A stretch of 64,000 nucleotides of DNA from Aplysia californica. Its lineage: Eukaryota. How positions within the stretch are numbered: the stretch's first letter is position 1; every line of letters starts with the position of its first letter. The notes beneath the pieces are model-generated. The model saw nothing but the letters and a program-made list of their open reading frames with translations. It was not told the DNA's origin and made no database searches. The stretch lies in contig NW_004797661.1 in NCBI RefSeq assembly GCF_000002075.1, positions 89,934 through 153,933 on the forward strand. The letters are read 5' to 3'. This document shows positions 38,701-62,720 of this stretch, piece by piece. The translations under genes and the position numbers were made by a program.

Positions 38701-41585
38701 TATCACGAATAAAGCTGTACTGTCCAAAAGAAAGATATTGTTGTGTGGACCTAGATACTTTCGTTGTGACAAAAAAAAATATTCTGTTACTATTCCCTCA
38801 AGATTTTATACAAATTTTAACCTGTAGAATTACTCATTTATACTATCCCTCAGTTTCTATAGACATAGAAAAATAAGTGAATTCTCTTACCCCCACCTTT
38901 GCAGTTCTTTCTGTTTTGTTTGTTATTTTGGTTAGACATCATGTTTTACCTCTACAGTCTGCGATCATGACTGCATTGAGTGATCTGTCTATCTCAGATT
39001 CAAGCAGTGTTTCATAAAACATCTACTCAGTCAATCAATTAAGAATTCAAGCAGAACTTTTCTCTACATTCTCAGCTGATGATTGGAGGGTGCCACTTGG
39101 TCCTTCTTCTTTTCTTTCCAACTGCTGTTTTTGCCTGTGTTTCTGTCCTGCTTTTTGTGTTGATGTGCTTCTCTTTACTCAAACAAAGAAACAAATTCTC
39201 TGCATGGATGGTTGATGGGTGCTGGTGTGATTTGCTCCTTCTTTCTTATCAAACATCTATTGTCCAAATCTCTCCTCCTGCTTTGTTGTGTTTGTTACTC
39301 TCTTGTAACACCTCTAATCTTCTGGCGCTCATATGACTTTATGCAGTAGCGAGCGCCTTAAAACCTCTACTAAAACTAATACTAATCAAATCTTTGGCAC
39401 TTATATATATATGCGTCACGAAATGGTGGAATCAGGCCCTCGTCAATTTTTGGCCATGAGAAGTTATTGGTATCACCTGAAAGCTTATTTATTTGCCTTG
39501 CTTTTCATGAAAAAAAATCCATCTAGCTTGAAAAGAACTCAAGATATTTGCGATTGAAGGAAATGAGGTCGCCTGGTTTCAGTGGTGAAATTAGCGAGAA
39601 AATGGCCGCCAAAGTTTGGTGACTGCAAAAGCTAAAGAGTCCTTGAAAAAATAAAGAATGACATATTTTGTACCTTTAATCAATATTTTTCTGTAAAATT
39701 CACATGGAAATGTGTTTTTATGTGGACATAAAAGAGGTCGAGTCAAAAATAGAAATTCGATAAAAATGTCCAAACTGGCAGAAAAATGCCTGTTTCTCCG
39801 ATTTCTGTATTTTGACGAGCGCCTGGTTTCACCATGATGCCTCCTATATGTTCCAAACCCTGTAAAACTCTTACTAAAATAAAGCAAATTCTCTGCATTC
39901 TTTAGCCCGGAGCCCCACCCATGGACAAGTTCAACCTGTGGGGCGGCTCACTCTCGCTGGGGCATCCTTTCGGAGCAACCGGCGTGCGATTGGTCACAAC
40001 AGCTGCCAACAGACTTATCCAAGAAGGCGGTCAGTTTGGCCTGGTTGCAGCCTGTGCTGCCGGAGGACATGTGAGTAACTGATTCTAATTTGCCCATGGT
40101 CCTCCTTTTTCCTGTTGAGGCTGAATCTACTATTTAGATTTCTTCTCCCTTTCCAGATTTTTTTTCGTTCTTTTTATCTTCCTAATGATGTTGGGTGTGC
40201 TTTCTCCTTTGTCCTGTCCAGATTAGGCTGCCATATCCAAGGGATCTGTATTTTGGAATTTTACTGATCAGATATTTAAGAACGTTGTCTGAAATGGAAC
40301 ATGTTTTCCACCGGTTTACAGATTGCTTTTTGTCCTGTTTTTCCGACTGTTTATAATGTCAAAAGAGCTTAAGCTTCAGAAAGTCTTGGAATAAATTAGC
40401 ACGTGGGTACCTTGTTGTAGGCCTTCATCTGAAATATTACAGCGAAACATCTTTCGTCATCTTTGAGTTTGGCTGTTTTAAAAAAGCTGGGGGTGGGTAA
40501 GGTCAGGTCCAGGGATTACGAAGCTGTTCTTATTGGGGGGGAGGGGGGGGGGGTTATTTTATCCTTATTTGACATTGAAATGAGTATGCTTATGTATAAT
40601 ATTCTACTAATTTTAGAATAAGCATATAAGATTTGATAATACTTATATTTAATTTGACTGTTTATGTCTAAGTTGTCATTCATGAGTACCGCTTTAATTT
40701 CTTCTAAATGTGTCCATACTGTACAGTGTGTTAAGTAATGTAAATTTATGAAGATGTGTGTCTTTCGGGCTCTTTCATGGGGTTTGCATTTAAGGGATTG
40801 TGTGTATTGCAAAATGCTGGTTTGATTGAGTGGGTGGCTTAATCGCAGGTGTTTGTAAATCTTAATACCTGAAGGTAGGCATAACCCTATCCGTACGACC
40901 TGTGGTTATTTTGTACCCCCGGTGTTGTAATCCTCACATTTTAGAATACTTCAAGTATGAAGATCTCTTTGAAACTTTCAGTATTTCTCAAGAAATAATT
41001 TTGACAGACTGCTATGCAAAGCATACGGATAGGATTAACAAGTAAATTTCCTCTTTGGAGAGATCCGAAGGAAATATTATAAATGCAAGAAATTGCAGGA
41101 TATTTTTTCCGTCGTTGTTCCCAGCAGAATTTTAAATTTTATAAAGGCCATTGGCCTTTATGGCGAGTTGTAGAGTGAATTTGATATTATTAAAAAATTN
41201 NNNNNNNNNNNNNNNNNNNNNNNNNNNNNNNNNNNNNNNNNNNNNNNNNNNNNNNNNNNNNNNNNNNNNNNNNNNNNNNNNNNNNNNNNNNNNNNNNNNG
41301 CAGAGGTGAACAACTTGTGTTTCGCGCGCTCATATGACCTTAGCAGTTGCGAGCGCCGTAAAACCTTATACTATACACATACATAAATTTCCTCTTCCGA
41401 AAGTGGTGGCACAGAGTTCCCTACGTCGTATGGATACAATAATAAAACGCGGCATACGGATAAGGTTAAATATATTCTCATGTGAAAATTTAAACTGCTT
41501 TCCCTTGTTACTTTGCTTTTGATTGTTCCTTCTTTCCTTCTCTTCACAGGGCCATGCTATGCTTGTGGAGCGCTATCCGTCATAA
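26710..41585 (+). CDS. HADHB: Mitochondrial trifunctional enzyme subunit beta (long-chain 3-ketoacyl-CoA thiolase), 474 aa, 14 coding exons
   Basis: Exons 26710-26749, 28482-28559, 29388-29517, 29839-29870, 30290-30357, 31154-31241, 31984-32267, 33285-33372, 34818-34942, 35644-35771, 36424-36511, 38171-38245, 39906-40070, 41550-41585; all GT-AG, total 1425 nt. Motifs: [26 protein letters not shown] (catalytic Cys), [65 protein letters not shown]-terminus resembles a mitochondrial transit peptide. Confidence 0.96.
28712..28880 (+). repeat. Copy of the Nimb-tailed interspersed repeat
   Basis: Aligns with 37942-38103. Confidence 0.7.
30904..31051. mobile_element. piggyBac-like MITE
   Basis: TTAA|CACTTT ... 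AAAGTG|TTAA. Confidence 0.6.
31340..31555 (+). mobile_element. tRNA-derived SINE
   Basis: A-box-like GTGGTATAGTGGTTAG followed by a body shared with 5385-5602. Confidence 0.6.
33792..34507. mobile_element. piggyBac-like non-autonomous element
   Basis: TTAA|CACATTACACCCTAA ... TTAGGGTGTAATGTG|CTAA, a perfect 15-bp TIR. Confidence 0.8.
36945..37869. mobile_element. piggyBac-like non-autonomous element
   Basis: TTAA|CTCACTT ... AAGTGAG|TTAA; CpG-rich interior unlike the host intron. Confidence 0.7.
37942..38103 (+). repeat. Interspersed repeat with I/Nimb-LINE-like 3' stem-loop tail (representative copy)
   Basis: GGGTGCTCTGGTGTGGTTTGCTTC...CTCTAATCTTCTGG(C/T)GCTCATATGACCTTATGCAGTTGCGAGCGC(C/T)GTAAAACCTCTACTAA. 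Other copies at about 17011-17063, 28712-28880, 39207-39380, 41325-41372, 43405-43572, 56628-56712 (+) and 40-135, 28660-28700, 60158-60212, 63094-63121 (-). Confidence 0.7.
39207..39380 (+). repeat. Copy of the Nimb-tailed interspersed repeat
   Basis: Aligns with 37942-38103. Confidence 0.7.
39402..39850. mobile_element. TIR DNA-transposon remnant, same family as 56877-57299
   Basis: Inverted ends ATGGTGGAATCAGGCCCTCGTCAA / TTGACGAGCGCCTGGTTTCACCATGATGCCTCCTATATG. Confidence 0.65.
40885..41034. mobile_element. piggyBac-like MITE
   Basis: ATAA|CCCTATCCGTA ... TACGGATAGGA|TTAA; a related end CATACGGATAAGG|TTAA lies near 41453-41468. Confidence 0.55.
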
Positions 41586-43404
41586 TAACAGCAACAACCT
41601 CCAAGGGGATTAAATGTAACTGAGTGAAGTGGTGGATTGAAAGCTGAAGTTGCAGACTGTAAATGACATTACAGTGACATCTACTTTCTACATAATTGAG
41701 ATTTTGTGTTTCAGTTTCAGAAAGCCAAGGACTTTTTCTACTTGATCTCTGGAATGACTTTAGACTTTCTGATTTTGTATCTCTCACGTTTTCAGACTCA
41801 ACACTAAAGTGTATTGAGTTTTTTTTTGTTTTTTTTTTCAGTAAGTTCTTTAATAATTTTTTCATTGACTTGAAAGCATAGATGAAGACTCACTGAGGTT
41901 TTTTTTTTCTTGCTTGTTTTTTTTTCTTGCTTTTTTAAAAAGGGAGGGGCGGTCATAAACAATAATGTTGATGGACATTGGAACATCTTGTCGTGATAGC
42001 ATAACTGAGCTGGACACACTAATAAGTTATGTCATTCTGTTGTGAAATCTGAGTGGTCTTGATTACCACATACAAGATAAATGTAACAAAATATTTTGTT
42101 GTCTCTCAATTTTGTAAGAGGATAAATCTGGTAAGTGGCATGCTTGTTTGTTGGTAATTCGTCTGTAGATTTCAGATGAGTTAAAATACAAATGTGTTCC
42201 TTCCTATTTGGTTGGTAAACTTTGTACAGCTTTTTCAATCGGCCAAAGGGTTGTTTGAGCGATGCAAAGTGTGTGATGTGCTCAGGGAAGATCTTTGTGT
42301 GTACTGTATGACAGGAAGTTTGATTGCAGAGCACTTTAATGACAGTTTACTTTAAAATGTTTTGATACTTGGCTGTGTCTTGTTGTGTACCTGAGATTTT
42401 GACCTGTGTAATCAGTCGGTGATTTCATTCCATTGTAATTGTAACAGATTAAATTGGGGATGATTGTTTTCTATTTTCTGTTTTGATGGTTCTAACACAC
42501 AGCTGTGTCTATTTTATCACAGAATTTGAATAAATCATAGCATAAGGTTTGTGGTCAAGATATTGCAGGAGCTTTTTATAGTCATTAAGTATTTAGCTAT
42601 GCTTGTAAAAATCTGTACTTTACTGTAACTTATCTTGAATGAGAGGGTGTGTTTTGCTTTGGGTTGGGGCGTAAATCTGAAGACGGATATTCTACATTGC
42701 ATGACCATGCAATTATTTTCAATAATGACCCGCATTTTGTAGGGTTTGAGAACAGATAAGTAGTATTAAAGTGCTTTCTTTGTGTGAACCGTTTAGATTA
42801 AGTACTGATACTGAGGTAAATCTATGCGTATTGTGTGTGTATTGTTGTGATACCAAGCCTGCTTTAGTGATGTAATGTGTTTGTCTCGTCCCCAATGATC
42901 AACACACAATTGCAAACTATGAATAAAACTTTTTGAAATAAAGGCAGGATTGTTTACTTTTTATGGTACAAGTTCAGGACTCATCTTATGAAAAAAAATG
43001 TCACATACAAAGAAAACAAGGCATTTTTAATCTCTCCTTTCATGTCTCCATGTTATAACTGGCTGTGGCTGAGTAGTTTCAATGCTGGAGCCGGCACCGA
43101 CCATGAAAGCTGTTGGGCACTTTTTTTACTTTTTGCGGAGCATCAGGCAATGTTAACTTTCAAAGCCTTTAGAATCACAAAATGGCTATAACCTTTTTTC
43201 TAGTTTGCTTTTTGTCCCGACACATTGGAATCGGAGGCGCGTATCGTTGCTAGTTGGCTTTTGGAATTACATTCCTGGCTCAGTTCAGATTACTGTCATA
43301 AATAATTAGATAATTCTGACAGTATGAGTGTTATTAACTTAGTATTAGGAGCTTCTAGTACAGTTGGTACTGGACAGAGTCTGTTTAAAGGTCATGGGCA
43401 GTTG

Positions 43405-44597: not shown

Positions 44598-44641
<44 letters not shown>

Positions 44642-44990
44642 TAACAATAAGTAGCAGTTGTGTAGCACATATCTCCGCTTGAGAGCAGGCTCTGTGTGCT
44701 TTCCATCATGTTATGCTTTATTACTACAACAGACCCTGGTATACTGAGAAACATTCTCAACTTCCCGGGAGGCATACAGTGCAAGAAGCCAATTAACAAA
44801 CACAAACTGAAATGATATTTCGCTTTCTGTAGCCCGGTACCCATTCCCACAAGGGTGAAAAAAAGAAGAAAATTCGTATGAAGTGCCTTTCCCAAGGACA
44901 CAACATCGGGGCCCTGGCAGGATTCGAGCCCACGACTTGATTGTTGCGAGTCCGAGAGTCTAACCACTAAAACACCGACGTCATGCTGTT
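44590..44990 (-). mobile_element. tRNA-derived SINE with GTGTCCTTGGGAAAGGCACTT central motif and (TAT)n tail
   Basis: Head (minus strand) TAGTGGTTAGACTCTCGGACTCGCAAC...GGCTCGAATCC; L2/CR1-like tail ending in (TAT)n. Confidence 0.75.
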
Positions 44991-45339
44991 GCATTCATTC
45001 TGACAAACTCGGTTTGTTTGTTTGTCTTTTTGTTTCGCAATTTAAGCGTTCCACAGTGAATGAGTACGATGAGGAACACGTACAAGCAGACGCACGCTGC
45101 ACAACCGCAGGAATTTTGTTTGATAAGTGTTTTACGGCACTCGCGACTTCATCATAAAAAGGCCATATGAGCGCTCGGGGCACATTAAACATGTTCAGTT
45201 TGGTAGGAATTAATAGGCCCTATTGAATTTTTCCCGGGTGGCGGCCGAAGCCTCCTTTATCGTTCTTGGACCACCAAGGGATCGTTCGCAACTTGCACAC
45301 GCAACCCCCAAGATTTTCGTCCTTATCCGAGAAGACTAG

Positions 45340-45622
45340 ATGTTAAATCTTATCTTACCTACCCTAAGATCAGGGGTGTGGCTGAATGGCAGCAGTAAGT
45401 TAAGGAGCCAGGGAGTAGCAGTAGAAAGGCTGTAGAAAGAGTCAGGAGCCCAGAGGAGGGGACAAAGGGGGTGGGGGTAAAAAGTGGAGACGGCAGCAGA
45501 CGACAGAACACACAGAGCAGGAAAGAGGGTGAACAGAAATTTTTTTTCCATCGCTCTCAGGTTTCGAATCCGGGACCTATTGAATGAGAGGTGAACACCG
45601 TAACCTCTAGACCACGAGGGAT
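45340..45622 (-). mobile_element. tRNA-derived SINE
   Basis: Head (minus strand) CTCGTGGTCTAGAGGTTACGGTG...GGATTCGAAACCTGAG with A- and B-boxes. Confidence 0.7.
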
Positions 45623-46214
45623 GGGCGCGCAGGTGGGTGGAACCTGCACTACTATGTCATTTCTTTTCTCTTCTTCTATTGTTTCTGTCGGCATATAATC
45701 GTTCTTGTTCCGTACATGTGTAGTAATAATGGCCGTGGTCGTGTCAATATTACTATGCTTCCTTTTACTCAAACCAGACTAATTAGTTAGGTGTAAAGCT
45801 TTCACACACACACACANNNNNNNNNNNNNNNNNNNNNNNNNNNNNNNNNNNNNNNNNNNNNNNNNNNNNNNNNNNNNNNNNNNNNNNNNNNNNNNNNNNN
45901 NNNNNNNNNNNNNNNNGAGAGAGAGAGTAACGCAGTGATGGAGCAAGCTCATGTAAGCCACGCCACTGCAGGCTCACGCAGCGGGTGAAGCGAGAGATGG
46001 CCGTGGTGTGCTGCATGCTTCGATCTAGCTCAAAGGCTAGCAAAACGCACGCGTGATGTGTCATGTGCAGGCAATGGGAAACTACCCATGAATAAATACA
46101 GCTGGATTAGTCCACAAATGCTTACTCCCCTTGCATTTCTGATTTAACAGGGATCTGATATAACAGGATTTTTTCTCTGGCCCTACAATCCCTGTTATAT
46201 CAGGCTTCCACTGT

Positions 46215-46570
46215 AATAATAAATAATAAGCAGCATTTGTATCGCGTATATCTCCGCTCGAGAGCGATCTCTGTGTGCTTTCCATCATGCTATGTATTAT
46301 TACTCCAGCAGACCATAGTATACTCAGGAACATTCTCTACTTCGCGGGAGGCATACAGTGCAAGAAGCCAATTAACCAACACAACCAAACTGAAATTATA
46401 TTTCGCTTTCTATAGCCTGGTACCCATTCCCACCTGGGGGGAAAAAAGTAAACTCGTGTGAAGTGCCTTTCCCAAGGACACAACTTTGGGCCCCTGGCGG
46501 GATTCGAGCCCACGACCTTATGGTTGCGAGTCCGAGAGCCTATAACTAAACACCGACGTCATGCTGTTGC
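46215..46570 (-). mobile_element. Second copy of the same tRNA-derived SINE
   Basis: Aligns by eye to 44640-44990. Confidence 0.75.
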
Positions 46571-46934
46571 ATTCAATCTAAGAAACTCGGTTTGTTTGTC
46601 TTTTATGTTTCGCAGTTTAAGTGTTCCTCAGTGGATGAGTACGATGAGGAACAAGTACAAGCAGACCCACTGCACAACCGCAGGAATTTTGTTTGGTAAG
46701 TCGGTAAGTGATTTACGGCACTCGCAACTTCATCATAAAAATAAAAAGGTCATATGAGCACGCGGGACACATTCAACATGTTCAGTTTAGTAGGAATTAA
46801 TAGGCCCTTTTGAATTTTTCCCGAGTGGCGGCCGAAGCCTCCTTTATCGTTTTTGGACCACCAAGGGATTGTTCGCAACTTGCACACGCGACCCCCGAGA
46901 TTTTCATCCTTATCCGAGAAGACAATGTGCTAAA

Positions 46935-47210
46935 TCTTACCTTCCCTAAGATCAGGGGTGTGACTGAATGGCAGCAGTAAGAAGGAGTAGCAGTAGAAAG
47001 GCTGCAGAAAGAGTCAGGAGCCCAGAGGACGGTACAAAGGGGGAGGGGGGGGGGATGTGGGTAGAAGTAGAAGTGGAGACAGAGGCAGACGACAGAACAC
47101 ACAGAGCAGGAAAGAGGGTGAACAGAAAATTTTTTCCATCGCTCTCAGGTTTCGAATCCGGGACCTATTGAATGAGAGGTGAACACCGTAACCTCTAGAC
47201 CACGAGGGAT
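46935..47210 (-). mobile_element. tRNA-derived SINE (duplicate of 45340-45622)
   Basis: Near-identical head and body to the 45340-45622 copy. Confidence 0.7.
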
Positions 47211-49328
47211 GGGCGCGCAGGTGGGTGGAGCCTGCACGACTATGTCATTTCTTTTCTCTTCTTCTATTGTTTCTGTCGGCATAATATCATAATCGTTCTT
47301 GTTCCCTGTATGTGTAGTCATATTGGCCGTGGTCGCGTCAATATTACTATGCTTCCTTTTACTCAAACCAGACTAATNNNNNNNNNNNNNNNNNNNNNNN
47401 NNNNNNNNNNNNNNNNNNNNNNNNNNNNNNNNNNNNNNNNNNNNNNNNNNNNNNNNNNNNNNNNNNNNNNNNNNNNNNNNNNNNNNNNNNNNNNNNNNNN
47501 NNNNNNNNNNNNNNNNNNNNNNNNNNNNNNNNNNNNNNNNNNNNNNNNNNNNNNNNNNNNNNNNNNNNNNNNNNATGTCCACATGGTTTAACCCTCTTCT
47601 ATTTAAACTTGATACCTCTTTGATGATTGCCTGGTGTCTTTACTTATTTTAAGTTCTCTTCAGTGTTACTGTTACCGCACTGTTTCCCTTATCCGTTCCT
47701 TCTTGCTAAAGACCTATGTGCTATTAGCAATTAGGGCCTACTTATCCACTCTCATTGAAACGGGTTTCCTTCTTTCAACCAGTCAAGGCAAGATGATTGT
47801 TTTCATATCAGGTGTATTTTCTTCTTCAGAAAATTCCAAAGTGAACAATACAAAAAGGGCTGTTCTCAGCGATTTCCTGTGACCTCTTTTCAACCCGAGT
47901 CATGTGAAAAGTCACGAGACAAAATTATGTTTGACAAGAAGAAACGCATGACTGCTTTATTGGGGTCAGCACACGGAGGTCGTAAACTCTATGGGTCATG
48001 AATGAAAACAGGGGCATGATAAAGAAATGAATAAGAACTTTTATCAGTTTAAGACAACGCAGGTTAATGTTGGAGGGTGCTATAACGGTTAGGTCTGACA
48101 TCGTTCCCACTTCCCTCTATTTCTGTTCTTTCTACTCGACTTTCGATGTTGCTTCTCCACAGCGCTGAATGGTTATAGTTATACTTTACTTTTGATTCGC
48201 TTCTCCGCTTCAAACAACACTGTGTAAAGGTGATTTACAATAGCCTTTTTCAGTGCACAAGTTGATGTGTTGTTTTTTTTCTAATGTGTTATGGATATTG
48301 AGACATAGCCTACATTTTAATAAAAAAAATGACCGCTTCGTATATTACGCTACCCAAACCTAATTAAACGTATCGTAGCAAAAAAAATAAAAAATGATAA
48401 CAAAGGTTCAGAAATACCGATTTAGATGCCACACTAGTATCATATAAATTTACACTATACTAAAAAGGAGGTACAGTATAGAAAAGTGTCCTTTCCCGTT
48501 CTTCTTTTTTGCCAGTTTAGTTGAGTAGGCATTACATAACGCTCTTCAACACACGAATGAATCGCTGTAAAGCATATAATATCGAGGAGTATTCCAATAA
48601 CAAGATAAGTAATAAGAAAGAAAATAGACGCCGCACCAAATTACTTTTCTCTGCTTGGATGCTCGTCTAGATTTTGTTTTGCACCCAGCATGAGTTGGAT
48701 GACTAATAAAAGTAGCGTAAATCTATGGATAAAACACTTTTACATAATGTAGCCATCATGCATTACACAATATATTTTTTAATACAATGATAAACTGTGC
48801 TTCAATATTTCAAGTTATGTAAGCCAGATGTTTCGAAAAGGAAGTTGTTTTTGTTCTTGGGTCTAATAATAGATGTGTACCAGCTCTGGGTGCTTTCCAG
48901 AACTCAAGAGTAAACATTCTGTCAGGATGAGAAAATAATATATGGTTTATATAAATAATAGAATAAATATAACCTCCTTATTGGTCAAAACAAACACAGA
49001 CGCCGGTAACGTGTTAGCAGGGCATGACAATGCAAGGGAGCCGCTTGAAAAAAGGTTTAGGCTAAGTTTAATTAAAAAGCCTGGTTCTCCAAATAACCCA
49101 TCCAAACAACAAAACAGGGAATCTCCTAAAGAAAAATGAAAGTAGGCCTTAAAAAAATTCATTCAACATAATACTTATGGTGGTGAGTGGTGACTGTTTG
49201 AGTTGAGGGCATCGCGGACACATAATATATAGCCTAATGTCTTATCAGCACAGACCGAAGGCAATTATGTTGCTATACATTTCGAACCATAAAAAAACAT
49301 AGACCCGAAACAAGTTAGTATCATACTT

Positions 49329-50017: not shown

Positions 50018-50191
50018 GTAAGTTCTAGTCGAAAACAACTAAGCTAAAGCCTACACTAGCTTTTTGTTGTTATTGTTGTTGTCAGCTCTGCAGCAAGATT
50101 AGTTCAGGGTTAAGTTGTGTAATAAATACATTGGATCGTCAATCTTTTTAACGATTTCTTTTGACAGTTTGCGTCGCCGGGATCTAGCAGT

Positions 50192-53100
50192 ATGATGTGG
50201 AGTGCAGCGCTGTCATGCATGACTATTATCTGGATTCTCGTTGGATCCTTGGCCTGCCAGCGAAATTGTGGATCGCAAAAAGAAGATAATGACCGCTTCA
50301 TCTTGGATAGTGTTGTCTACAAGAATGAAGTCTCAACATCATCTCTTTCCGTACGTAGCCTTTTCTTTCTTTTAAATGAATTAATGTCTAACCCTCTAAG
50401 ACTAGGCTAATTTTTAAGAGTGGCCATGGGTTGTCCTATAAATGTTATCAATTAAGAATAGAATAAATACATGAACCTCNNNNNNNNNNNNNNNNNNNNN
50501 NNNNNNNNNNNNNNNNNNNNNNNNNNNNNNNNNNNNNNNNNNNNNNNNNNNNNNNNNNNNNNNNNNNNNNNNNNNNNNNNNNNNNNNNNNNNNNNNNNNN
50601 NNNNNNNNNNNNNNNNNNNNNNNNNNNNNNNNNNNNNNNNNNNNTACTTTATTTAATGATAACGAATTTCACAGTGCAGGCCATAATATAAGTCCTATGC
50701 TTTTAAAAGAGTCCATCAATTTAGGCTAGAAAAGACAAATTCGAGACTTGAAATATAAATCTTTTTGCTTTGTGTGTGTTTTATTAGGTTATAAATATAT
50801 ATGTGTGTATGTGAATAGCTAAAATAGCACAATCTTGAAGACACATCACATCACGATACTACTATAGACATAGATCTAGACAGTTATTTCATGCACCACT
50901 TTGTTTTGTACATGGGATGAAGGGCTAAAACAGCACCTGGACATGGATGGCTGGTGCCTCTATAAATAAATCATTGATGGTCAGGACATGGGATGAAGAA
51001 TTAAAGATGTCATAATTAAATTGGCATGTTTTAAAATTAATGTAAAGCAAACATTTGCTTTTGTTTCAAATTTTCAAAATCGCATCGCATATGAACCTGA
51101 CAGTTGTGTTAAGGTTACTCGAATGTTGTACGTATAGCCTATAGCAGTTAAATTATGATTAGGCTAATCAAATTGTATTTAAATTGGCTATCTTGGTCCT
51201 TATGTTGAATTTGAATGTTCTGTTTCAGGCTGGTAAAGTCTGGTTGTTTGCTGTGGATGGTCGTAGAAAACCGTACAATTTTCTGTAAGTGTGTTTTTTT
51301 CCTTTTATGCAGATTATCATAAAATTATAAAACTTTGTTTCGAGATCAGTATAATAAATATGGCCTATTGATTGAGTAAAGGCGGATATATCGCTAGAGC
51401 TGTACTCTAAAGACACCCAAATATGCCGTGAAGTAACTGGTGTTGAATTTAGCTGCGGATTTTGGATATGATGTGGTGGATATATTATGGAATCGATGGG
51501 GTTATTTTTTAAATTTGTGTGGGAGGTTAAAAAGGAAAGGCTGGTGGAGATTTGGGAGGAGTATTATTATTATTATATCAGTGAGTCAGTGTCTGAAAAC
51601 AACAAAAAATCTTTTTATTAATTGATATTTGAAAGTTTTTTTGTTTTTGTTTTTCTTTCTGTGGAGATCACTATCTATGTATAATGTTAGTGCTTTTGTA
51701 AATTAAAAACATGATTTTACTTATCCTTTTTTAAAACATTCTATTGACAGAGATGAAAATGGAAAGCTGGTTGGCTTTGATGTGGATTTCATATCCAAAG
51801 GTAAGTGTCAGCAATTATTCAGTCATTTGGAAAAAGCATGGGAAGTGCAGAAGTATACTTTTTGGCTACTTCAATTATTTGTTTGTAATGTAGGTTTGAC
51901 ATGTCATCTGTAGCGGTAGGCCTTTTGGAGCTGCCGGAAAAGGAGTATATATGTTCCTTTCGATTAATAATTTCTTTAGCTAGAGTTGACAAAATTGTCT
52001 ACCGTCAAACCTGTCCAAGACGGAATTGCAAGGAAGTGAGAAACAATTTCGATTTTAGATAATTTTCCATCTTGGATAGGGGAGTTTAGGAGGGCCAACT
52101 GTACATGGTGGGATAAAATGTCATCTTTCAAGTCGGCAAGCAGTGGTTAAAAAAAAACTTCACACCCCCCAAATGCTGTCCTAGCCACTGTGATAGTAAA
52201 GGCATAGGCCTACATCAGTCTTACTAATCCATTGCCACTCGTGCTTGCATCTCATAGGGACCACTGCTTGACCTTTAAAAAAACAAGAAACCATTGGACG
52301 TCTCTTTTGTTTCCACTCTTAGCACGACCCATGGGTGTATAACGGAAACAACCAATGCCACCCTTCCTCTGCAAAAAACAACAATTCAGGAACTTTTTTT
52401 GTTGCTGGCCATACCATCGGGGTGGGAGGCAGTGGTCAAATTTCACATCTCTGGCTACCCAGAGAATTTTGTGTGGTATGCCATTTTGAAGAAAAGCAGC
52501 AGTGAAATTTCCCAGCCACATGATCGTGGCTATCTTCACAGCTCAGGTTCACATGGGTGGGGTAACAGCTACCCCCAAACTGCTTTCCTTTCCTCGTCCT
52601 TGGCCTGACAACTTGTGAGTCTTATTTCAAAAAGATCTGAGGATTGAGCGGGCAAAACATTTTCTATCTTTGACAGGAGAAAACCCTCCAAAGGGAAGGA
52701 ATTTCTGTGTCTGTTTCTGGGGTGAAAGTTTCTATCTTAGACAGATGTATTTTAAAGGAATTTATCGAGGGTGGGCGGGGTTCAGTCAAGACAGGTTCCT
52801 ATCTTGGAAAGAGATTTCCGTTTATGGTACTGTACTTTTTTCATTAAATTTTTTCCTCGATAGATATAAAAGAGATCTTGTCAGCTTTTATGTCACCCTT
52901 TTCATTCTATTATAACAATGCTTTGAAATGTTTAAATTTTGCTTTGGAATTCTTTGTCATTTATTATGCTCCTTGTGGTTGATACTTTCATAATGTTCAT
53001 CATTTTAAATGTTTTCATGTTTCAGTATGTTCTGTTGTACAAAAGAAGTGCAAAATTGTACTTGCTGAATTCACTGAATGCACCATCACTGAAAGAAATA

Positions 53101-56100
53101 TCAACTATGCTGGAAGAGGTGAGCAGTTACTTGTTCTACAAATTTTGAGTGCTTTAAATGTCAGTGGTGAGCATGTAACTTCATTGAAAAAATAAATGCT
53201 CTCACTGCAATATGGGGCGGAAGGGGGTGGGGAGGGGGTGGGGGTGGACTGTCTTTCAAAGAGACATGTACGTAGAGATATGTTGTATTTTTTTCCAAAG
53301 AATGTCAGCTTGTTTCGTTTGTTTTGTAAAGAAACTCTCATTGAGTTTAAACTGTAGTGACCTCTTTAGGCTTAATGATGCAATTAATTTTTTTGTTAAT
53401 GAGCACATTTCATCGATTTTACTGCAGATGTTGTTGAGAACTTCTGTTAGATTTACCTAATCAGGAGCCTCCATGTGGCAGACAAAAACAAAAAAAAAGA
53501 GGGAGAAGAAGTTATTAGTGTTGTGTCGATGAAATGAATATAATCATAATAATTTTGCATGTGACATAATTTCTATTGTATATTATTGTGTATAATGGTG
53601 TAGCAATAACCAACATTGTATCATTAAAATAAAATGCTTTTCTCTGTTCACTTATTCATAAAGAGCAGCAGATTAAGTAAAGACAAGGGTAAAGGTAAAG
53701 TTGTTCCCGCATCCGATCTGGACATTGGAGATAGCCTTGTTAGTGAGCGAGACAACTTCCTGGACCTTTGGCATAATATTGTGGTAGGGTGGAAAGACAT
53801 GGGTATTGCTGTGAAATAAAGAATTCTATGTCTTTGGTACATCAAATCAAAGGCACATAATATGCTGAAATGACTTTGGACATGAACAGAAAGCTGAGAT
53901 GTTTTTGGTTTCTTTCCAGGCCTCATGTCAGGATGGTTTGATGGATGTCCAGGTTATGTTCTATCCTTGGACAGGCAAGGAGCTTTTGATTTTACTGAGC
54001 CTTATCTTGCAACTGATGCTTCTTTCACTGTGTCTCCTGGCAACCCCTCTGGCTTTGACCCAGACTTGGATGATTACTCTAAATTCACCTTGAGTGAGTA
54101 ATTTTGATTGTGTTCACGTTTCCGTTTTACACAGGTTTCTGTTAAGGTAGGTTCGACTGTATATAGCGAATGCGGTGGGAAGTGGAAATCTTTTCGTTAT
54201 GTACGATTTTTTCTTTAAATATTTATTTTAATTAAATACAAAGATTGTAAGTCAAAACTGTCTCAGACAGCCATCTATTGTGGAAGAAAAAAAGTGTGTT
54301 TTTTAGAAATTACTATGCAAACAACACGCAAGGGAGGAAATGGGACGTGGCCGTTTGTACAGGTGGGTGTTAGAGCTGGGTCGGCTGTGCTGGTATAAGC
54401 AAAGATTCCAAATCTGAAAATTGGTTCGATATGTAGGTATTTGCTATGTGTGTGTGCTAGAGTGCATATCTTTTAATTTTAAGATTGTACCTTTTTAAAA
54501 ATTTAGCTACAGTGAAATTTGTTCAGGAAGTACTGTCACATTAATAATGCTGTGGCACCCATATGATGGGCACCTCTGTTCTTTTAATTTTTCAAGTGGG
54601 TAGTATCTGTATTCTCGTACCTTAAATATGCTGCTGAAATCTTCCTTCCCATCATTGCCGGAGAGGTATAATGAAGTATCAGGGGGAAAAATTAATTTAT
54701 GACAGACATTTTTCTTGTGTTATAGGTGCTGAGTTTCAGAGTTAGAAAATTACATAACTGTTTTTATTGTTGATGACCCCTGCTTTTTCAAAGTTCAATT
54801 TCAGAGTAAAGGTGGGGGAAAAATTTCTAAGTCAGAGTAGTAGTTTCGTGTCACTGACTCTCTGATTTATGTTTGCAGCCCATTTGACAGGAGCTGTCAC
54901 AAATGCTCAGTGCCTGAATAGGTTGCACAAGAAGTTTGGGAAAATTATTGTGGCTGCAGACTTACCAGATGCCAAAGAGTTGTTACTGAACAGAACTGTA
55001 AGTTATTGCTATTGTAGCATTGTGTTATGTTTCAGTATTCATGGGGGTGAGTGGACGTTCAGTTCAGTGGAAATGAATTTACTTTGTGCTTTTTTTAATC
55101 AGAGATTTTGATGGGCTGGTGATGCGGTGTGCTTTTTCTTATCAGTGGTTTCGGTTGGCTGGTGATGCGGATACCAATACTTATAATTTGTAAGTGTTAT
55201 GTTATTTACATTCCAAGGAGGAACTAAGAAAAAATTGTTTCTTTGTCTTATTTAGTCGTGAAGAGAGAACAACATAAGAAGGAAATCTAGGGGGAGAGAA
55301 AAAAAAGGATGCTTTATATATACTTTACAGATCTTTTTCGCTCCACATAATGATAACCAAATTTTATTTTTGTCAAATTTTTCTTCAGGCTGATGTGTTA
55401 TTCTCTGCCCGAAGATCAATTTCAGGCCTTGAAGTTTTGCCCCAGCGTGTGCACTGTGAAATGGGTGGCACCGGAGTGATGCTGAAAAAAGGCAGCGAGC
55501 TGGCTCAGTGGTGGAATCCTGCCTTTCAGACGTTGGTCTTGTCTGGCGGGTACGCTCAGTTCTGTGCTGAAAGTGAAACCAAATACAATGGTTAGTATTG
55601 ACACCAGTAGAGACAAAGAGATGTTTTCTTCCTTTAAAAAAAAAGAAATTATGAATCTTAATCATGTCATTGTCAACATCTGTTAAACATATGCATCATA
55701 AATTTAATATTGAGAAGTTTTTTAACATCCTGATCTTAACAAAGACGTGAGGATGGTCACAAAGCTCCACTACAATACTTTTCTTCTTTCTTATTCACAT
55801 ATTGTTACTGCCAGTTAGTTGTCTAGCCCTCCTTCAGAATGCCTCACTCTCTGACTAACTTAATGTCAATATACTTTTTATTAAACTTCCTTTCTGCTAC
55901 CACATTACAATTGTCTTTGAGCTGTAGTTTGAAGGCAATCATTTGACATAGATAGGGTATCCATTGTCCCTTAATTCTGACCTGTCTCTTTTCATTCACA
56001 GCGACATTCAGATGTCTGTCAGGCCTAAAGGCTGGCCATATAATATCTGGAAAGCCACTGACCCCAGCAACACAGACCATGTCTCAGGTGATTTGTCTGT

Positions 56101-58353
56101 TGTATTTTATTTGTTTGGTGTGTGGCTTTCTATTATAAGCTTTGATGAAATGTAAAAGACAAAGTTATCAATGTGAAAATCCATCTGTTATAGGAGTTTT
56201 CGAAAAGATGTAATTACAGCTTGGAACACTTTAGGGTAAGATTCAAGCATCAAGTAATTTCTCGACACAAAAGTTGGTTCCCAACCCAGTTTTTTTTTCT
56301 CCTGTATTTCCTCATTCAAAATTTGAATTCTGGAAGTTTTGAAAAAAATTTGAATTCCTGCCCTGATTCAGGTTCCACAAGTATTTTGTTTGATTCTGTT
56401 ATAAAAGTAATTCTCTTTTGTTCAGGACGCTGCTGATCAGAGAGTGTGGCTTTTCGCTCTTAGTGGCAGGAGGAAACCCTTTGCATTCCAGTAAGTATTC
56501 AACTATAATAGGCCTATGTATTGTTTTTCTTCTTTCTATAGATCTGTTTATATTGTCTTTTTCCTGGTGATGTCATTTGCAAACATATGGAACTCTCCTC
56601 CTTTTTTTTGTGTATTTTACTATCTAGTAACACCTCTAATTGTCAGCCTTTACATGACCTAATTGCTATATGACCTTATTGTGTTGCTAGTGCCATAAAA
56701 CTTATACTAAAATGTGTTGAAATATGTATTTGTATTTATGTATTTATATGTGTCTATAAAAAGCTTATAATTTGTGTACATATTATGTTTATACTCATAT
56801 TTGTTACACACATTTTTTAAATGAAAGATAGAAGCATCTTTAGTACAGTGAACAATACAGTCACATATGTTCTTTCCATATGTGAGGCATCATGGTGAAG
56901 TCAGGCGCTTTTCAAAATATAGACATTTTTTTCGAATTTTTGTTTTTTTGTTTTTTTTTAGGCTCAGCACCTTGTATGTCCATTCAAAAACACTTTTATA
57001 TGTGGATTTTATGGAAAAGCGTTGAATATAGGCACAACAAATTTAAATTTGCAGTTTCCAAGGACTCTTAAGCTATGGAAGTCACCAAACTTTGGCGGCC
57101 ATTTTTTCACTAATTTTATCTCTGAAACCAGGCGACCCCACCTCCTTCAATTGCATATGTCTGAACTTCTATTCAAGATAAATATATATTTTCTTCATCG
57201 AAAGTTAGGCAAATGAACAACCTTTAAGATGATACCATTAACTCCATATGCCCAAAAATTGATGAGTGCCTGATTCCTCTTCGTTGAGAGACATATATGT
57301 GAATCTTCAATACCATGATACTTTTTATATGTGGGGGTTAGATGCAAAATACGCTAAGCAATATTTTTGGAAAAATCGATACTTTTTGCTTATAAATGCA
57401 CATTGTTACTGGTTATCAGATGCACAAAGTGTTTTCAGCCAATACCCAACACATACTTCATAAACGCTATTAAAAAAATCTTTTTACGCATGTTTGTGCA
57501 TATAGCATGCAAGCAGCATTAGAAAAAGCAGATTTTCTCAAAAGGGCTGAAATGGATGTAGCTGGTTTTGCATAGTTTGGCTTTGTGTTGTAATTTAAGA
57601 CAAAGGACTTTATTCTCTCAATGTTATCTGTGAGTTGTGACTAAAAAGCTCTTATTTTTGAAACTATGTTATTGTGTTGCTAGTTGCTAATGGCGTCCCA
57701 AAACTCACTCAATTTGAATTGTGCTCGTAATTTTTGTACTTTCTATTTCAGGGATGAGGAAGGGAGGTTGAGTGGCTTCAATATTGATTTTGTGCGTGCA
57801 GGTGAGGTAACAATAATTATTTAAATTGATGCTACCTTATGGTAATATATTTGATTTGGTATGCTGTGTTTCATGCCACCTCTTTTTTTTTTTTTTTGAT
57901 TTTTGCATTCTTTTGATTTTCCTTTAACATGGCATGAAACCGGTGAGTTAAAAAACATATATACAGTTGAGTTAAAATGGTTATTTTTATAATGATTATG
58001 ATTTTGTGAAGTGGGTGGTGGAAGGGTGTTTCTTGTAGTTTTTATTTCTTGTGTGGTATGTCATCTACTTTTTCGAAGCTTTGAAGTCTCAATCCTTGCA
58101 GCAGTGTGTTTTTCCTTTACACAAATGAGCATCTATTGGATTTATAGCTGTAAAGCATTATATTTTCTATTGCGAACACTGATAAAAACAAAGTTTCTCT
58201 TTGCCTTTTACTCTCAGTGTGTGCTGAAGCGAAGCAAGTGTGTGACTTTGTCTTGTCACAGTTTACAGAATGTTCCTTCACCCAACGCAACATCAACTAT
58301 GCTGGAAGAGGTAAGTCCTTGTTGTCATCGTCATCATTATTGCCATTTTTGTC

Positions 58354-58391
<38 letters not shown>

Positions 58392-61300
58392 TGATGATCA
58401 TCATTATCCTAATTGTCGTTGTCATCATTTTTTTTGTATGTTAGCTTACGTTGGCAATCATTGTTCTCAATTTTACTCTGTGTGTGTGTGTGTGTGTGGT
58501 CTGGCACAGAAGGTTCATTTCCTTTTCATCCCCTTTTCATTCTGGTTTCATTCTTTGTTTTTCTTTCTTTCAATACTTGGTTTGTTAGGTATTTGTTTTT
58601 GGGTTGTTTTTTTTACATCTGTTTTATGTACATTTAGAGTTTTTGTAAAGGGAGGTGGAGAATTTAGGGGACTAGTATTATGCACATCTTAGATTGGGTT
58701 TGATACATACACTTTTAACATAATTTGCTTAAATGGCGATACAGTCTTCTTGGGATGAAGCAATGTGTTCCTTAAATTCTTGTTAAGAAAAGTGAATGGA
58801 TTGTGAGGAAACTGAGGGTGGGGTGGGAGGATGAGATCACTGATGATATTAGTTGGAATTGTGCTGCTTTGCATTCTCAGGGATTCCATGACAATGAAGT
58901 TGGTCTGTTTAAAATCCAGTATAGCAGTGGTAGCCTATGTCTTCCTGCACACAAAAAATACATAGCTTGTGTTCAAATATTGTGTTTTGGTAGGTTTCTA
59001 GAAATGTCTAATGTATAGTTAAAGGGTTACTGTATATTTTTGGAGAAATGTATGGTTTCAGTAAATACAGTAAAGCCTACTTAAACTGTACAAGGTTCAT
59101 CCAAAAACAGCAGTAAACAGAAAGAAATGAAAATTCCTCATTTTTTTGTTATTGTTTATTTGAGAAGCCTCTCTTTAATTAAAAACCTGGTTTAACTAAA
59201 GAAAACCCTGCTGTCTGGCAGATTTAGGTTAAAGTGGATTCTACTGTTCTTTGTGAAGTCTCCAGTATAACATGCCAACTCCTCCTTGAGTGTATTTTTG
59301 AGGGCTGTAAAATATACCTCTAGGGCTCATGGATGGCTGGTTCGATGCTTGCATGGGTTATGCGGACTCTGTGGACAGAGCGGCTGCCGTGGACTTCACA
59401 GATGCTTTCCTAGAATCATCCTCCACCTTCACTGTAGTACCAGGAAATCCATCTGGCTTTGACCCAGATCAACAGGACTTCTCAAATTTTACCTTCAGTG
59501 AGTTCAAATTTGAGATAATGTTGGGACTGATGGCTTTTGCTTATCAACTCATGTCGTTTTTTTTGGACAAATCAATGACCTGGAATAGGCCTACATTTTG
59601 ATTCTGATGCCTGAACTTAATTGACAAGGGCAAAGCTCAAAACTCAAAATTTAGTGTCAGTTGAAAAAACTCTTAGTTTTCAGTTCCTAAGTGTGATCAT
59701 TTTGAATATGCGTATACTTGAGATGAGATATAATTTTGGCAAAGTCAAGTTGAGATTCTGAAACATGTTATTATTGAACCCAGAAGGAATTCTCTCTGTA
59801 TGTTTTAGTGAAAGCATTATACAGGCTATAACAGTCAAGTTTGTATATAAATCTTCCTCAACTTTTTTCCTTGAATCTGCACATTTTTTTCTCTGAAGCC
59901 GTGGTGTTGAAAGGACAAAGCCTTAGTGTAGATTGATAACTTTTCTTGAATCAGTATTGCATTGTTGCTCATTTTCTCTGCCAGCTCATCTGACTGGAGC
60001 GTACACCAATGCCCAGTGCTTGAACAGACTGAAGAAAAAGTTTGGAAAGATTGTTATTGCTGCAAACCTTCCAGAGGCTAAAGAACTGCTCTTTGACAGG
60101 AAGGTAAAGAAATTGTGTAATGGTATATAATGCTATTGGTGCGTATATGTGTAAATTAGTTTTAGTAAGAGTTTTACGGCACTTGCAACACAATAAGGTC
60201 ATATAAGTGCCGTATGTGTAAATGAAAGTGCATGAACTAGGTGATTTTAATTCTGATAGCATCTGTTGGAAAACGGAAACAAACTTTGGAGATTGAATTT
60301 TGGAAGAGATGATAATGAATGATCAAAATTATTTGTCAATAATATCTTGTAAATGTATTTATTTTCATTTTTAATCAAAACTATTGTAGTAGATAATCCA
60401 GATACCCAATGGTTGTTGGGTAGCAGATTCAGAAGTGGTGGGACAGTGGGGGAAAAAAATTAACATTTTTTGCCTCATGTTTCAGGCAGACGTGCTGTTC
60501 TCCCCACGGGGCAAAATCCCCGACTTGGAGGTGTTACCCCAGAGAGTGCACTGTGAGCGCACGGGCTCGGCCATCATGACCAAGAGAGGGAGCCCCCTAG
60601 TGGACTGGTGGAATGCAGCGTTTCGCTCTCTTGTACGGAAAGGGCTGTACCAGAAAGTGTGTGAGGAGGGCAGAGTGAAATACAACTGTGAGTTGAACAT
60701 TTATGTTTTTTGCAGATTTGTTCAGTAGATAAGATAAGATAATATACATCTTTATTGTCCAGATCCTGGCACATNNNNNNNNNNNNNNNNNNNNNNNNNN
60801 NNNNNNNNNNNNNNNNNNNNNNNNNNNNNNNNNNNNNNNNNNNNNNNNNNNNNNNNNNNNNNNNNNNNNNNNNNNNNNNNNNNNNNNNNNNNNNNNNNNN
60901 NNNNNNNNNNNNNNNNNNNNNNNNNNNNNNCACACTCGTAGGCTTACAAGCACATGCATAATATAAATGAGCAGCAATATAAACAATAATAATCGTGAGC
61001 TAGATACACACTCAATGTTATTTTGATGCTTGCTCTAAGGTTCTAAGTATACTTATACAAGATGGTTAAGATGAAAGTATTTTGATAGATGTAGCTATTG
61101 CAGTTGTACAGTGTTAGAAAAGAATAATGATTTATATTTAGACAGTCGAAATTGTCTAAGGTGACTACCCATTGTTGAAGAGAAAATTGTCCGTCTTAGG
61201 GGAATGTCTTATATAGTGTCATTATATTGTACAGGAATGCTGGAGGTGAAATGGGAAGTGACTTTTTATACAGGTGATTGTCTTATACAGGTGGCCGTTA

Positions 61301-62720
61301 GAGCATGTTCGATTATACAGTATAACACGGATAGTTAGAACTTGTCGGGACCGACCTTGGAAGTTCGAGGGATCTGTAGTTTGAGGAATACGTGAACAGT
61401 ATTGTGGCATCAGTTGTTTCAGAGAATCAAGGGAAGCAAAAAAGATTGGATTGGAACAGATTTTTCTTTTTCCTGCCATTGTCGTAGATCAGATAGGATA
61501 GATCTATGCCTGTTGACTTGAATTTGAAATTTGAGAGAATTTGAAATTGACAGATTGAGAATGAGAAACACTGCAACGCTTTCGAGTTCGATCGGTAATG
61601 AGCCATCCGGTACCAAAACTGTTTATTTGCATGTGTCAGTGTGAGCAGTCTTTAGACTGCACCAACGGAATGGTGCCTTTTCAAATTTTTCAAGACATAA
61701 ACAATCTGACAAGATAAACATATCGCAACAGTAATCAACAAGGCGATGACGAAACAATGCAGGTTTTCCCTGCCTCTCCCACTAAGCGCGCAATCCTTTG
61801 CAAAGAGGGGGTGGGTGCCAGTCAGTCGTGTGATGCACATCCCCTCCTCCTGCCTACTCTACACAAGCCTAGCTAGGCCTAGGACCTAGGCATGCGCAGA
61901 GGGCACACATGTTGAGCAGCGCGCTAAAAATAGCACAGTTAGCCTCTTCTATGGAGAGGGGGGGGGGGAGATGGTATTTTACTGACCTTGCCTTTTTCCG
62001 TTTTTATCATTATTATTGTTATTATTTTGTCTCAAGTACACCTCAAAGGACATCGACTTTAGACCTCTACGGTGGCGTAATTAGTTCGACTGTTCTGTGT
62101 TTGTGTCCGAGCCTGGTGTAATTTGCTTACAAAAATAAAGAAGAAAAAAACCAAAAAACGGGACCACAGGCACAGTTCGACGGATGCGTGATTTCGAGTA
62201 ATCTGTGCTCGACCTATCCGGGTTATACTGGATATATATAATATAAAATTGACTGGGCTTTTTTTTATGTGGTGAATTAGAGATATTGGTACCTGACTAA
62301 AGTCACTTTCAATTCTTCATAATAAAGAATTCATTGTTCCTCTGTTGAGTATATTCTATAGACAAGTTATTATGTTGTGCAGTTGTAACATACAGTAGTC
62401 TTCTCTTGCGAAAATGTTTTGGTTTCTGATTTTCAGCATCTGATTGCTATTACTTGAACAAATGGTATAAAAACTGCGTCCAGTTTAAAACTATATGGTT
62501 CAAAGTTTCATGCTTCCACAATGCTACATATCAATTTGTTTTTTGTAGCTTTTTTTTTTCCAGTTCCTCTGAAGAATATTTCTGTTGTATTTTTTTTTTT
62601 CACTGGATGACTTTTGATCACTCATGCTTCTTTCTGTTTTTCACAGTTCCAATCAGATGTTTTCCAGAGAACACTTCCTTACCTACCAGTGGATATCCAG
62701 AGGATTATATTATTGGGTAA
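50192..62720 (+). CDS. Secreted protein with two tandem bacterial-type polar amino-acid substrate-binding domains (SBP family 3 / PBP2; HisJ/ArgT/ArtJ-like), about 571 aa, 15 coding exons
   Basis: Exons 50192-50350, 51229-51284, 51751-51800, 53026-53118, 53920-54093, 54879-54997, 55389-55590, 56002-56087, 56426-56490, 57752-57801, 58218-58310, 59324-59497, 59985-60103, 60486-60687, 62647-62720. All GT-AG and in phase, 1716 nt open. Signal peptide MMWSAALSCMTIIWILVGSLA. SBP3-like motifs KPYNFLDENGKLVGFDVDF, VC-x6-C, GLMSGWFDG, DRQGAFDFTEPY, ADVLF, KKGSELAQWWNPAFQTLVLSGGY, each present twice. Family assigned by motif recognition, not by database search. Confidence 0.85.
51229..56020 (+). other. 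SBP3/PBP2-like domain copy 1 (exon set)
   Basis: AGKVWLFAVDGRRKPYNFLDENGKLVGFDVDFISKVCSVVQKKCKIVLAEFTECTITERNINYAGRGLMSGWFDGCPGYVLSLDRQGAFDFTEPYLATDASFTVSPGNPSGFDPDLDDYSKFTLTHLTGAVTNAQCLNRLHKKFGKIIVAADLPDAKELLLNRTADVLFSARRSISGLEVLPQRVHCEMGGTGVMLKKGSELAQWWNPAFQTLVLSGGYAQFCAESETKYNATFRCL. Confidence 0.8.
56877..57299. mobile_element. TIR DNA-transposon remnant, inverted homolog of 39402-39850
   Basis: CATATGTGAGGCATCATGGTGAAGTCAGGCGC...TCACCAAACTTTGGCGGCCATTTT...GAAACCAGGCGACC matches the reverse complement of 39560-39850. Confidence 0.65.
58354..58398. repeat. (GAT)n microsatellite
   Basis: Seen directly; produces the spurious poly-Met and poly-Asp ORFs. Confidence 0.95.

What the first reader, a model, noticed from the sequence alone, without database searches (positions are those of the whole stretch)
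51229..62720. Whole-domain intragenic duplication after intron gain: identical exon lengths and phases in both SBP repeats
Seen in sequence: repeat 1 exons are 56/50/93/174/119/202/(86) nt and repeat 2 exons are 65/50/93/174/119/202/(74) nt, with identical intron phases (2,1,1,1,0,1). The introns are unalignable and the proteins are only roughly 55-60% identical by eye. Inference: the ancestral single-domain gene already had at least six spliceosomal introns before it duplicated. This shows long residence in an animal genome and rules out bacterial contamination of the assembly.
Basis: partly seen in the sequence, partly recalled or inferred. Interest (0 to 1): 0.7.

Follow-up and report, generated by a model that had tools for sequence, protein, structure and literature searches.

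The report
Sea-hare twin-pocket protein, ancient introns
This sea-hare gene makes one spliced message for a likely secreted protein with two copies of a bacterial-style binding domain; both copies have introns at the same six places, four of them shared with distant animal relatives, and the two halves were likely once separate sister genes that fused, which is an ordinary way for such proteins to arise.

Summary
Exons are 56/50/93/174/119/202/86 and 65/50/93/174/119/202/74 nt, phases 2,1,1,1,0,1 in both halves, all introns GT..AG. Spliced contigs from three studies cross the join between the halves, so it is one transcript and not contamination. The repeats are 61% identical and synonymous sites are saturated. 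Two corrections. (1) The introns are far older than the duplication: four of six sit at the same position and phase in single-domain homologues only 23-29% identical, from a subfamily that also holds amphioxus, echinoderm and priapulid proteins. (2) 'Intragenic duplication' is not the favoured route: repeat 1 groups with one single-domain gastropod paralogue and repeat 2 with another (69% against 13% of quartets), which favours fusion of older sister genes; AU tests do not reject the alternative. Transfer from bacteria is not shown. The mechanism is ordinary. What remains of interest is a widespread animal family of secreted class-3 solute-binding proteins for which I found no study.

The parts
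50192..50350 (+). First coding exon (159 nt): start codon, hydrophobic signal-peptide-like stretch, spacer; phase-0 intron follows.
   Evidence: joint 50350>51229 in contigs of X5 and X12; exon begins at 50168 in those contigs
51229..51284 (+). Repeat 1 exon 1 (56 nt, phase 2 after)
51751..51800 (+). Repeat 1 exon 2 (50 nt, phase 1)
53026..53118 (+). Repeat 1 exon 3 (93 nt, phase 1)
53920..54093 (+). Repeat 1 exon 4 (174 nt, phase 1); holds Arg138
54879..54997 (+). Repeat 1 exon 5 (119 nt, phase 0)
55389..55590 (+). Repeat 1 exon 6 (202 nt, phase 1)
56002..56087 (+). Repeat 1 exon 7 (86 nt): last cysteine plus linker, phase-0 donor; counterpart of the terminal exon
   Evidence: linker residues 299-310 have pLDDT under 50
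56088..56425 (+). Bridge intron between the repeats (338 nt, phase 0); no AATAAA/ATTAAA and no signal-like reading frame
   Evidence: spliced out in contigs of X5, X12, X6, X9
56426..56490 (+). Repeat 2 exon 1 (65 nt, phase 2)
57752..57801 (+). Repeat 2 exon 2 (50 nt, phase 1)
   Evidence: spacing of contig pieces leaves room for it
58218..58310 (+). Repeat 2 exon 3 (93 nt, phase 1)
59324..59497 (+). Repeat 2 exon 4 (174 nt, phase 1); holds Arg401
59985..60103 (+). Repeat 2 exon 5 (119 nt, phase 0)
60486..60687 (+). Repeat 2 exon 6 (202 nt, phase 1)
62647..62720 (+). Repeat 2 exon 7, coding part with stop; the 3' UTR continues to at least 63120
   Evidence: X5 record 4

Best explanation
This is one spliced Aplysia gene for a 571-residue, likely secreted protein with two class-3 solute-binding domains, whose halves likely come from two already diverged single-domain sister genes that were joined by read-through splicing in an ancestor of sea hares, sacoglossans and pulmonate snails. 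Shown: gene structure, single transcript, domain family, shared intron sites. Inferred steps: an intron-rich single-domain gene duplicated at DNA level early in gastropods; the copies diverged (the 'DG' and 'SG' types still found as separate genes in caenogastropods); a phase-0 donor in the last exon of the upstream copy was spliced to the phase-0 acceptor that used to follow the downstream copy's signal exon; the fused gene then duplicated whole to give the neighbouring paralogue. Each domain likely closes like a clamp on a small carboxylate-bearing solute outside the cell: the carboxylate-binding arginine is kept (Arg138, Arg401), while the aspartate that holds the alpha-amino group in bacterial amino-acid binders appears replaced, so the ligand is probably not a standard amino acid bound in the standard way.
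For: Single transcript: one contig spans signal exon to 3' UTR in X5 and signal exon to repeat 2 in X12; X6 and X9 contigs cross the bridge intron; three studies in all. Family: PF00497 twice, 97.8 bits; model pLDDT 88.5 with two like domains; top fold hits are class-3 binders. Old paralogues: of 3360 quartets, 2317 (69%) pair repeat 1 with DG genes and repeat 2 with SG genes, 442 (13%) pair the two repeats, 11 the third way; with Patella in place of SG 79% against 4%. Mean identity repeat 1 to DG 63%, repeat 1 to repeat 2 55%; diagnostic columns 3:0:0. Bootstrap trees: the two repeats of this gene together 94 of 1000; all heterobranch repeats together 0 of 1000; repeat-1 clades with DG 739 of 1000. 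Whole-gene copy next door with the same exon sizes; adjacent pair in Lymnaea by accession.
Against: AU tests do not reject the two repeats as one clade (p 0.376) nor all heterobranch repeats as one clade (p 0.16). The deep forks are open in the careful tree. The partner of repeat 2 shifts with the model: SG genes under LG+G4, Patella under the mixture model (repeat 2 with SG alone 0 of 1000). With bivalve and Haliotis outgroups the quartets are nearly even, 33% against 27%. Only three diagnostic columns. The DG and SG genes of Littorina and of Babylonia have different longest-contig lengths, so they may not be neighbours there. No ligand was tested, and the aspartate column rests on a gapped profile alignment.
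Confidence: 0.55

Rival explanations
1. One reading: one single-domain gene duplicated exons 1-7 internally on the heterobranch stem, and repeat 2 then evolved faster, which blurs the tree.
For: Two-repeat forms among named gastropods were found only in heterobranchs, single-domain forms in Patella, Haliotis and caenogastropods. AU tests do not reject it. A true internal duplication is seen in the family: the first two repeats of the three-repeat Elysia chlorotica protein are sisters (support 91/69).
Against: Quartets 13% against 69%, identities and diagnostic columns; 94 and 0 of 1000 bootstrap trees.
Confidence: 0.3
2. The two-domain gene is older than the main gastropod lineages, and the single-domain genes of limpets, abalone and caenogastropods are its split halves.
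For: It predicts the same unrooted tree as fusion.
Against: It needs several separate fissions, each giving the second half a new signal exon; most named single-domain SG and DG proteins have complete signal-like N-termini; bivalve, brachiopod and deuterostome relatives are mostly single-domain.
Confidence: 0.12
3. Two separate neighbouring genes wrongly joined, or bacterial contamination.
For: Reading on from exon 7 gives a 16-residue hydrophobic tail and a stop, unusual among 108 control sites.
Against: Spliced contigs of three studies cross the bridge; the 338-nt bridge has no signal-like frame or polyA signal; two-repeat orthologues in other snails; 14 GT..AG introns.
Confidence: 0.03

Closest known systems
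Bacterial class-3 solute-binding proteins (PF00497: LAO, HisJ, ArtJ, GlnH type)
   Same: Pfam match over the cut-off, same predicted fold, conserved arginine and F-T/S-x-P-Y hinge motif.
   Different: About 16-27% identity; eight cysteines per domain, spliceosomal introns, no permease or ATPase seen beside it, alpha-amino-binding aspartate apparently replaced.
Tandem SBD1-SBD2 of the GlnPQ transporter (PDB 6h30); BvgS and EvgS periplasmic double domains
   Same: Two class-3 domains in one chain; the top fold hits for the full-length model.
   Different: Those are tied to a membrane permease or kinase (recalled); TM-score about 0.3 and rmsd 18-23 A, so the domain arrangement differs; separate origin.
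Invertebrate multi-domain globins (Barbatia di-domain haemoglobin, ascarid, Branchipolynoe)
   Same: [quoted passage not shown]
   Different: Different family. The Barbatia case is cited there as a recent duplication, whereas these repeats are old and synonymous-saturated. That such genes keep intron positions per domain is recalled, not read in the passages.
Ligand-binding domain of ionotropic glutamate receptors
   Same: The same superfamily fold in animals (recalled; weak PF10613 score for the Elysia homologue).
   Different: No membrane segments or channel; no glutamate-receptor structure among the listed fold hits.

Membership tests
SBP_bac_3 (PF00497) | Profile score over the curated cut-off | tested here: met
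   97.8 bits against 26.4, two stretches
SBP_bac_3 (PF00497) | Two-lobed type II periplasmic binding fold | tested here: met
   Models and Foldseek, E about 1e-13, target TM about 0.6-0.7
Amino-acid-binding class-3 SBPs (ArtP/HisJ/LAO) | Arginine that binds the alpha-carboxylate | tested here: met
   Arg138 and Arg401; column aligns with the R of T-x-E-R; its role is recalled
Amino-acid-binding class-3 SBPs (ArtP/HisJ/LAO) | Aspartate that binds the alpha-amino group (LAO D161, role recalled) | tested here: inconclusive
   ADVLFS-A/P stands where bacterial proteins have DAVVT-D; no aspartate, but the profile alignment is gapped there
Amino-acid-binding class-3 SBPs (ArtP/HisJ/LAO) | Partner ABC permease and ATPase encoded alongside | tested here: inconclusive
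   Upstream neighbour looks like a thiolase (motif recalled), downstream neighbour is a paralogue; the region was not searched for ABC genes
Amino-acid-binding class-3 SBPs (ArtP/HisJ/LAO) | Measured ligand binding | not testable with these tools
   Needs protein
Intragenic whole-domain duplication | Both repeats in one transcript with one signal exon | tested here: met
Intragenic whole-domain duplication | Same intron positions and phases in both repeats | tested here: met
Intragenic whole-domain duplication | The repeats are each other's closest relatives, apart from single-domain genes | tested here: inconclusive
   Disfavoured (13% of quartets, 94 of 1000 bootstrap trees) but not rejected (AU p 0.376 and 0.16)
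Horizontally acquired bacterial gene | Nesting within a bacterial clade with an identifiable donor | tested here: inconclusive
   No relative found in prokaryote genomes by motif scan; listed plasmid matches 25-28%; green-algal homologue exists; no tree with bacterial rows was built

The most novel reading that the evidence does not exclude
Animals have kept, since before protostomes and deuterostomes split, a family of free-standing secreted Venus-flytrap proteins with four added disulfides and a rebuilt pocket, used as carriers or sensors of an unknown small solute; sea slugs and pulmonate snails fused two specialised paralogues into one two-ligand protein.
Probability: 0.3. Interest if true: 0.6.

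Novelty: new member of a known kind. Interest (0 to 1): 0.3.

Why it matters
The matching exon pattern is what any DNA-level copy of an intron-bearing gene gives, so by itself it is ordinary. Two by-products have some value. The intron sites date this 'bacterial-looking' gene to early animals or before, so it should not be counted as a recent transfer or as contamination. And the family is present in molluscs, annelids, brachiopods, priapulids, echinoderms, hemichordates and amphioxus under borrowed names such as 'arginine-binding', with no study found in my searches; its ligand is an open and testable question.

Tried and rejected
dN/dS between repeats: dS saturated (NG86 undefined, ML dS about 13; 35 of 54 four-fold sites differ), dN about 0.27-0.32, so no usable ratio. 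Raw reads of runs X21 and X22 gave almost no cover on the exons, and X16 contigs none at the bridge; this says nothing about expression elsewhere. No RNA holder was on record as RNA; the spliced joints are what show these contigs to be transcripts. Motif scans with the gastropod alignment found no relative among 123 metagenome and 40 genome stretches; a scan with the distant alignment could not run. Homodimer fold of the Haliotis domain: no answer. PF00497 scan of the own genome gave 8 other places, none matching seven family members by tblastn at E 0.05; not followed. Short single-domain isoform by read-through of exon 7: no contig cover at 56110-56271 in 4 of 4 runs and no polyA signal; not supported, not excluded. 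Literature: LOC101861674 0 papers; 'binding periplasmic protein-like' 0; five-term search 0; six-term search 0; PF00497 with invertebrate 1, about sponge glutamate receptors (one passage seen); two listings unrelated by title (listings only). No hit for SBP terms in the main text of PMC13350694 and PMC4729200 (term search only). The supplement of the metazoan HGT compendium PMC13342648 could not be read, so the family may be listed there. Earlier findings of this scan: none. Rows left out of trees: long or partial rows and near-duplicates (76 cut domains, 66, 44).

Full report
Observation. All 14 introns are GT..AG. A search with exon 6 returned a 571-aa protein named LOC101861674 of Aplysia californica (XP_005103882.1) whose printed sequence reads the same as my translation. 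The repeats are 61.5% identical over 231 ungapped codons; identity by codon position is 65, 80 and 39%, and 35 of 54 four-fold sites differ, so synonymous change is saturated while the protein is conserved. Paired introns do not align (5 of 6 no hit, one 14-nt match). Six coinciding intron sites are far beyond chance.

One transcript. In one search a 2218-nt contig of run X5 lies on the signal exon, repeat 1, repeat 2 and the 3' UTR, and an 1806-nt contig of X12 likewise up to repeat 2; the listed joints include the first eight introns, among them the bridge 56088-56425 (43 further joints were not shown). In one search single contigs of X6 and X9, from two further studies, cross the bridge; X14 gave separate pieces and X16 none. 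The bridge intron has no polyA signal and no signal-like frame.

What the protein is. Pfam PF00497 twice. The full-length model has pLDDT 88.5, two domains with like secondary structure and a disordered linker. Fold searches return class-3 amino-acid binders and, for the whole chain, tandem SBD1-SBD2 of GlnPQ with a different arrangement. Each domain has eight cysteines, most of them invariant in the alignments, which suggests four disulfides (inference). Arg138 and Arg401 align with the arginine that binds the carboxylate in bacterial proteins (role recalled); the aspartate for the amino group appears replaced by Ala or Pro, on a gapped alignment. Names such as 'arginine-binding' are thus annotation transfer.

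Range of the family. Two-repeat proteins: Aplysia, Lymnaea, Physella, Bulinus, Arion, Bradybaena, Plakobranchus, Elysia; three repeats in Elysia chlorotica. Single-domain: Patella, Haliotis, Littorina, Babylonia, Batillaria, Nucella. More distant, among 253 representatives at E 0.001 of which 150 were listed and 20 looked up by name: Mytilus, Pinctada, Owenia, Lingula, Branchiostoma, Amphiura, Anneissia, Saccoglossus and the green alga Prasinococcus; Diadema and Priapulus. Multi-repeat forms recur in other branches (Owenia, Prasinococcus, unnamed P0043, P0091, P0111, P0134). Listed bacterial matches are 25-28% identical. No donor was found and no tree with bacteria was built, so transfer is neither shown nor excluded.

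Age of the introns. A degenerate pattern for the start of exon 4 gave 16 metagenome loci; 9 of 16 matched the family, 6 of these as interrupted genomic pieces, and 5 had enough exons to model (junctions chosen by hand from GT/GC and AG candidates, one GC donor). These homologues are 23-29% identical to the Aplysia repeats. Introns 3, 4 and 5 fall in the same column and phase in 5 of 5, intron 1 in 4 of 4 modelled at both ends; intron 6 lies one codon off in 2 of 2; intron 2 is absent in 5 of 5; 3 of 3 contigs modelled past that point have an extra intron inside Aplysia's exon 6. Four exact matches by chance have p about 2e-4 even with only 70 usable sites. On a quick tree of 142 domains the contigs sit in a 63-row clade (SH-aLRT 95) with Branchiostoma, echinoderm, Priapulus and one Lingula protein, while Aplysia sits in a 22-row clade (96) with bivalve, Owenia and another Lingula protein. 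The host of these contigs is not known. If the tree is right, the two subfamilies split before protostomes and deuterostomes did, and so these introns are at least that old (inference). Indirect support nearer home: the Nucella model lacks the 31 residues of exon 3, and many short gene calls begin or end at the exon 4 and exon 6 borders.

How the repeat arose. A second, gapped gene 17-30 kb beyond the window has two 50-nt exons and 174, 119 and 202-nt exons; Lymnaea has the two types under consecutive accessions on one contig length. The repeat clades of both genes are well supported on their own, and the two repeats of the paralogue never group together (0 of 1000), so the two-domain form predates the gene pair and the split of sea hares from pulmonates and sacoglossans. 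Caenogastropods have two single-domain types, with D-G or S-G in the first strand's loop, as repeats 1 and 2 do. Quartet mapping pairs repeat 1 with DG and repeat 2 with SG in 69% of 3360 quartets against 13% for the two repeats together; identities and three diagnostic columns agree. Against this: AU tests reject neither internal-duplication clade, the deep forks are open, the partner of repeat 2 changes with the model, and quartets with outgroups are nearly even. I put fusion of older paralogues at 0.55, internal duplication on the heterobranch stem at 0.3, older duplication with fissions at 0.12. Both main routes need the same splice event: a phase-0 donor in the last exon joined to the phase-0 acceptor of the next copy's first domain exon.

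Comparison and verdict. Repeating a whole domain in one chain by duplication or fusion is well known in invertebrate globins (PMC4503718, passages; PMC1553488, abstract start in a listing). The gene is already annotated, and the exon match is the expected trace of any DNA-level copy. The finding is real and ordinary in mechanism. The family itself was not found in my paper searches, which cover only the held library; a supplement that may list it could not be read. Interest 0.3.

Noticed in passing
G000:C391:171066-184100 (L005-L007), beyond the window: A second two-repeat paralogue in the same orientation, partly in N stretches, with the same exon sizes; its second repeat is on a long branch.
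   Followed up: partly
window 56088-56138: Reading on from exon 7 gives a 16-residue strongly hydrophobic tail and a stop, like a membrane-anchor signal; the only such case among 108 donor-like sites. No contig cover seen; may be chance from T-rich intron sequence.
   Followed up: partly
window 39880-40072 and 41550-41618: Last exons of an upstream gene on the + strand with a C-terminal motif typical of thiolases (label recalled; translation).
   Followed up: no
window 44636-45783 and 46214-47377: A 1.2-kb direct duplicate, 86% identical, probably non-coding or mobile-element derived.
   Followed up: no
window 56877-57277 and 39428-39850: An inverted pair of a 0.4-kb dispersed repeat, one copy in intron 1 of repeat 2; it draws many unrelated transcript contigs.
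   Followed up: no
L012:147-1800: An unnamed uninterrupted two-repeat homologue whose second repeat groups with Aplysia repeat 2 while its first is on a long branch.
   Followed up: partly
P0002 (Elysia chlorotica, 811 aa): Three repeats; the first two are sisters, a likely true internal duplication on top of the two-domain form.
   Followed up: partly
P0091, P0095, P0119, P0134: Multi-repeat homologues of up to about 1500 aa outside the mollusc clade, one from the green alga Prasinococcus; repeat expansion recurs in this family.
   Followed up: no
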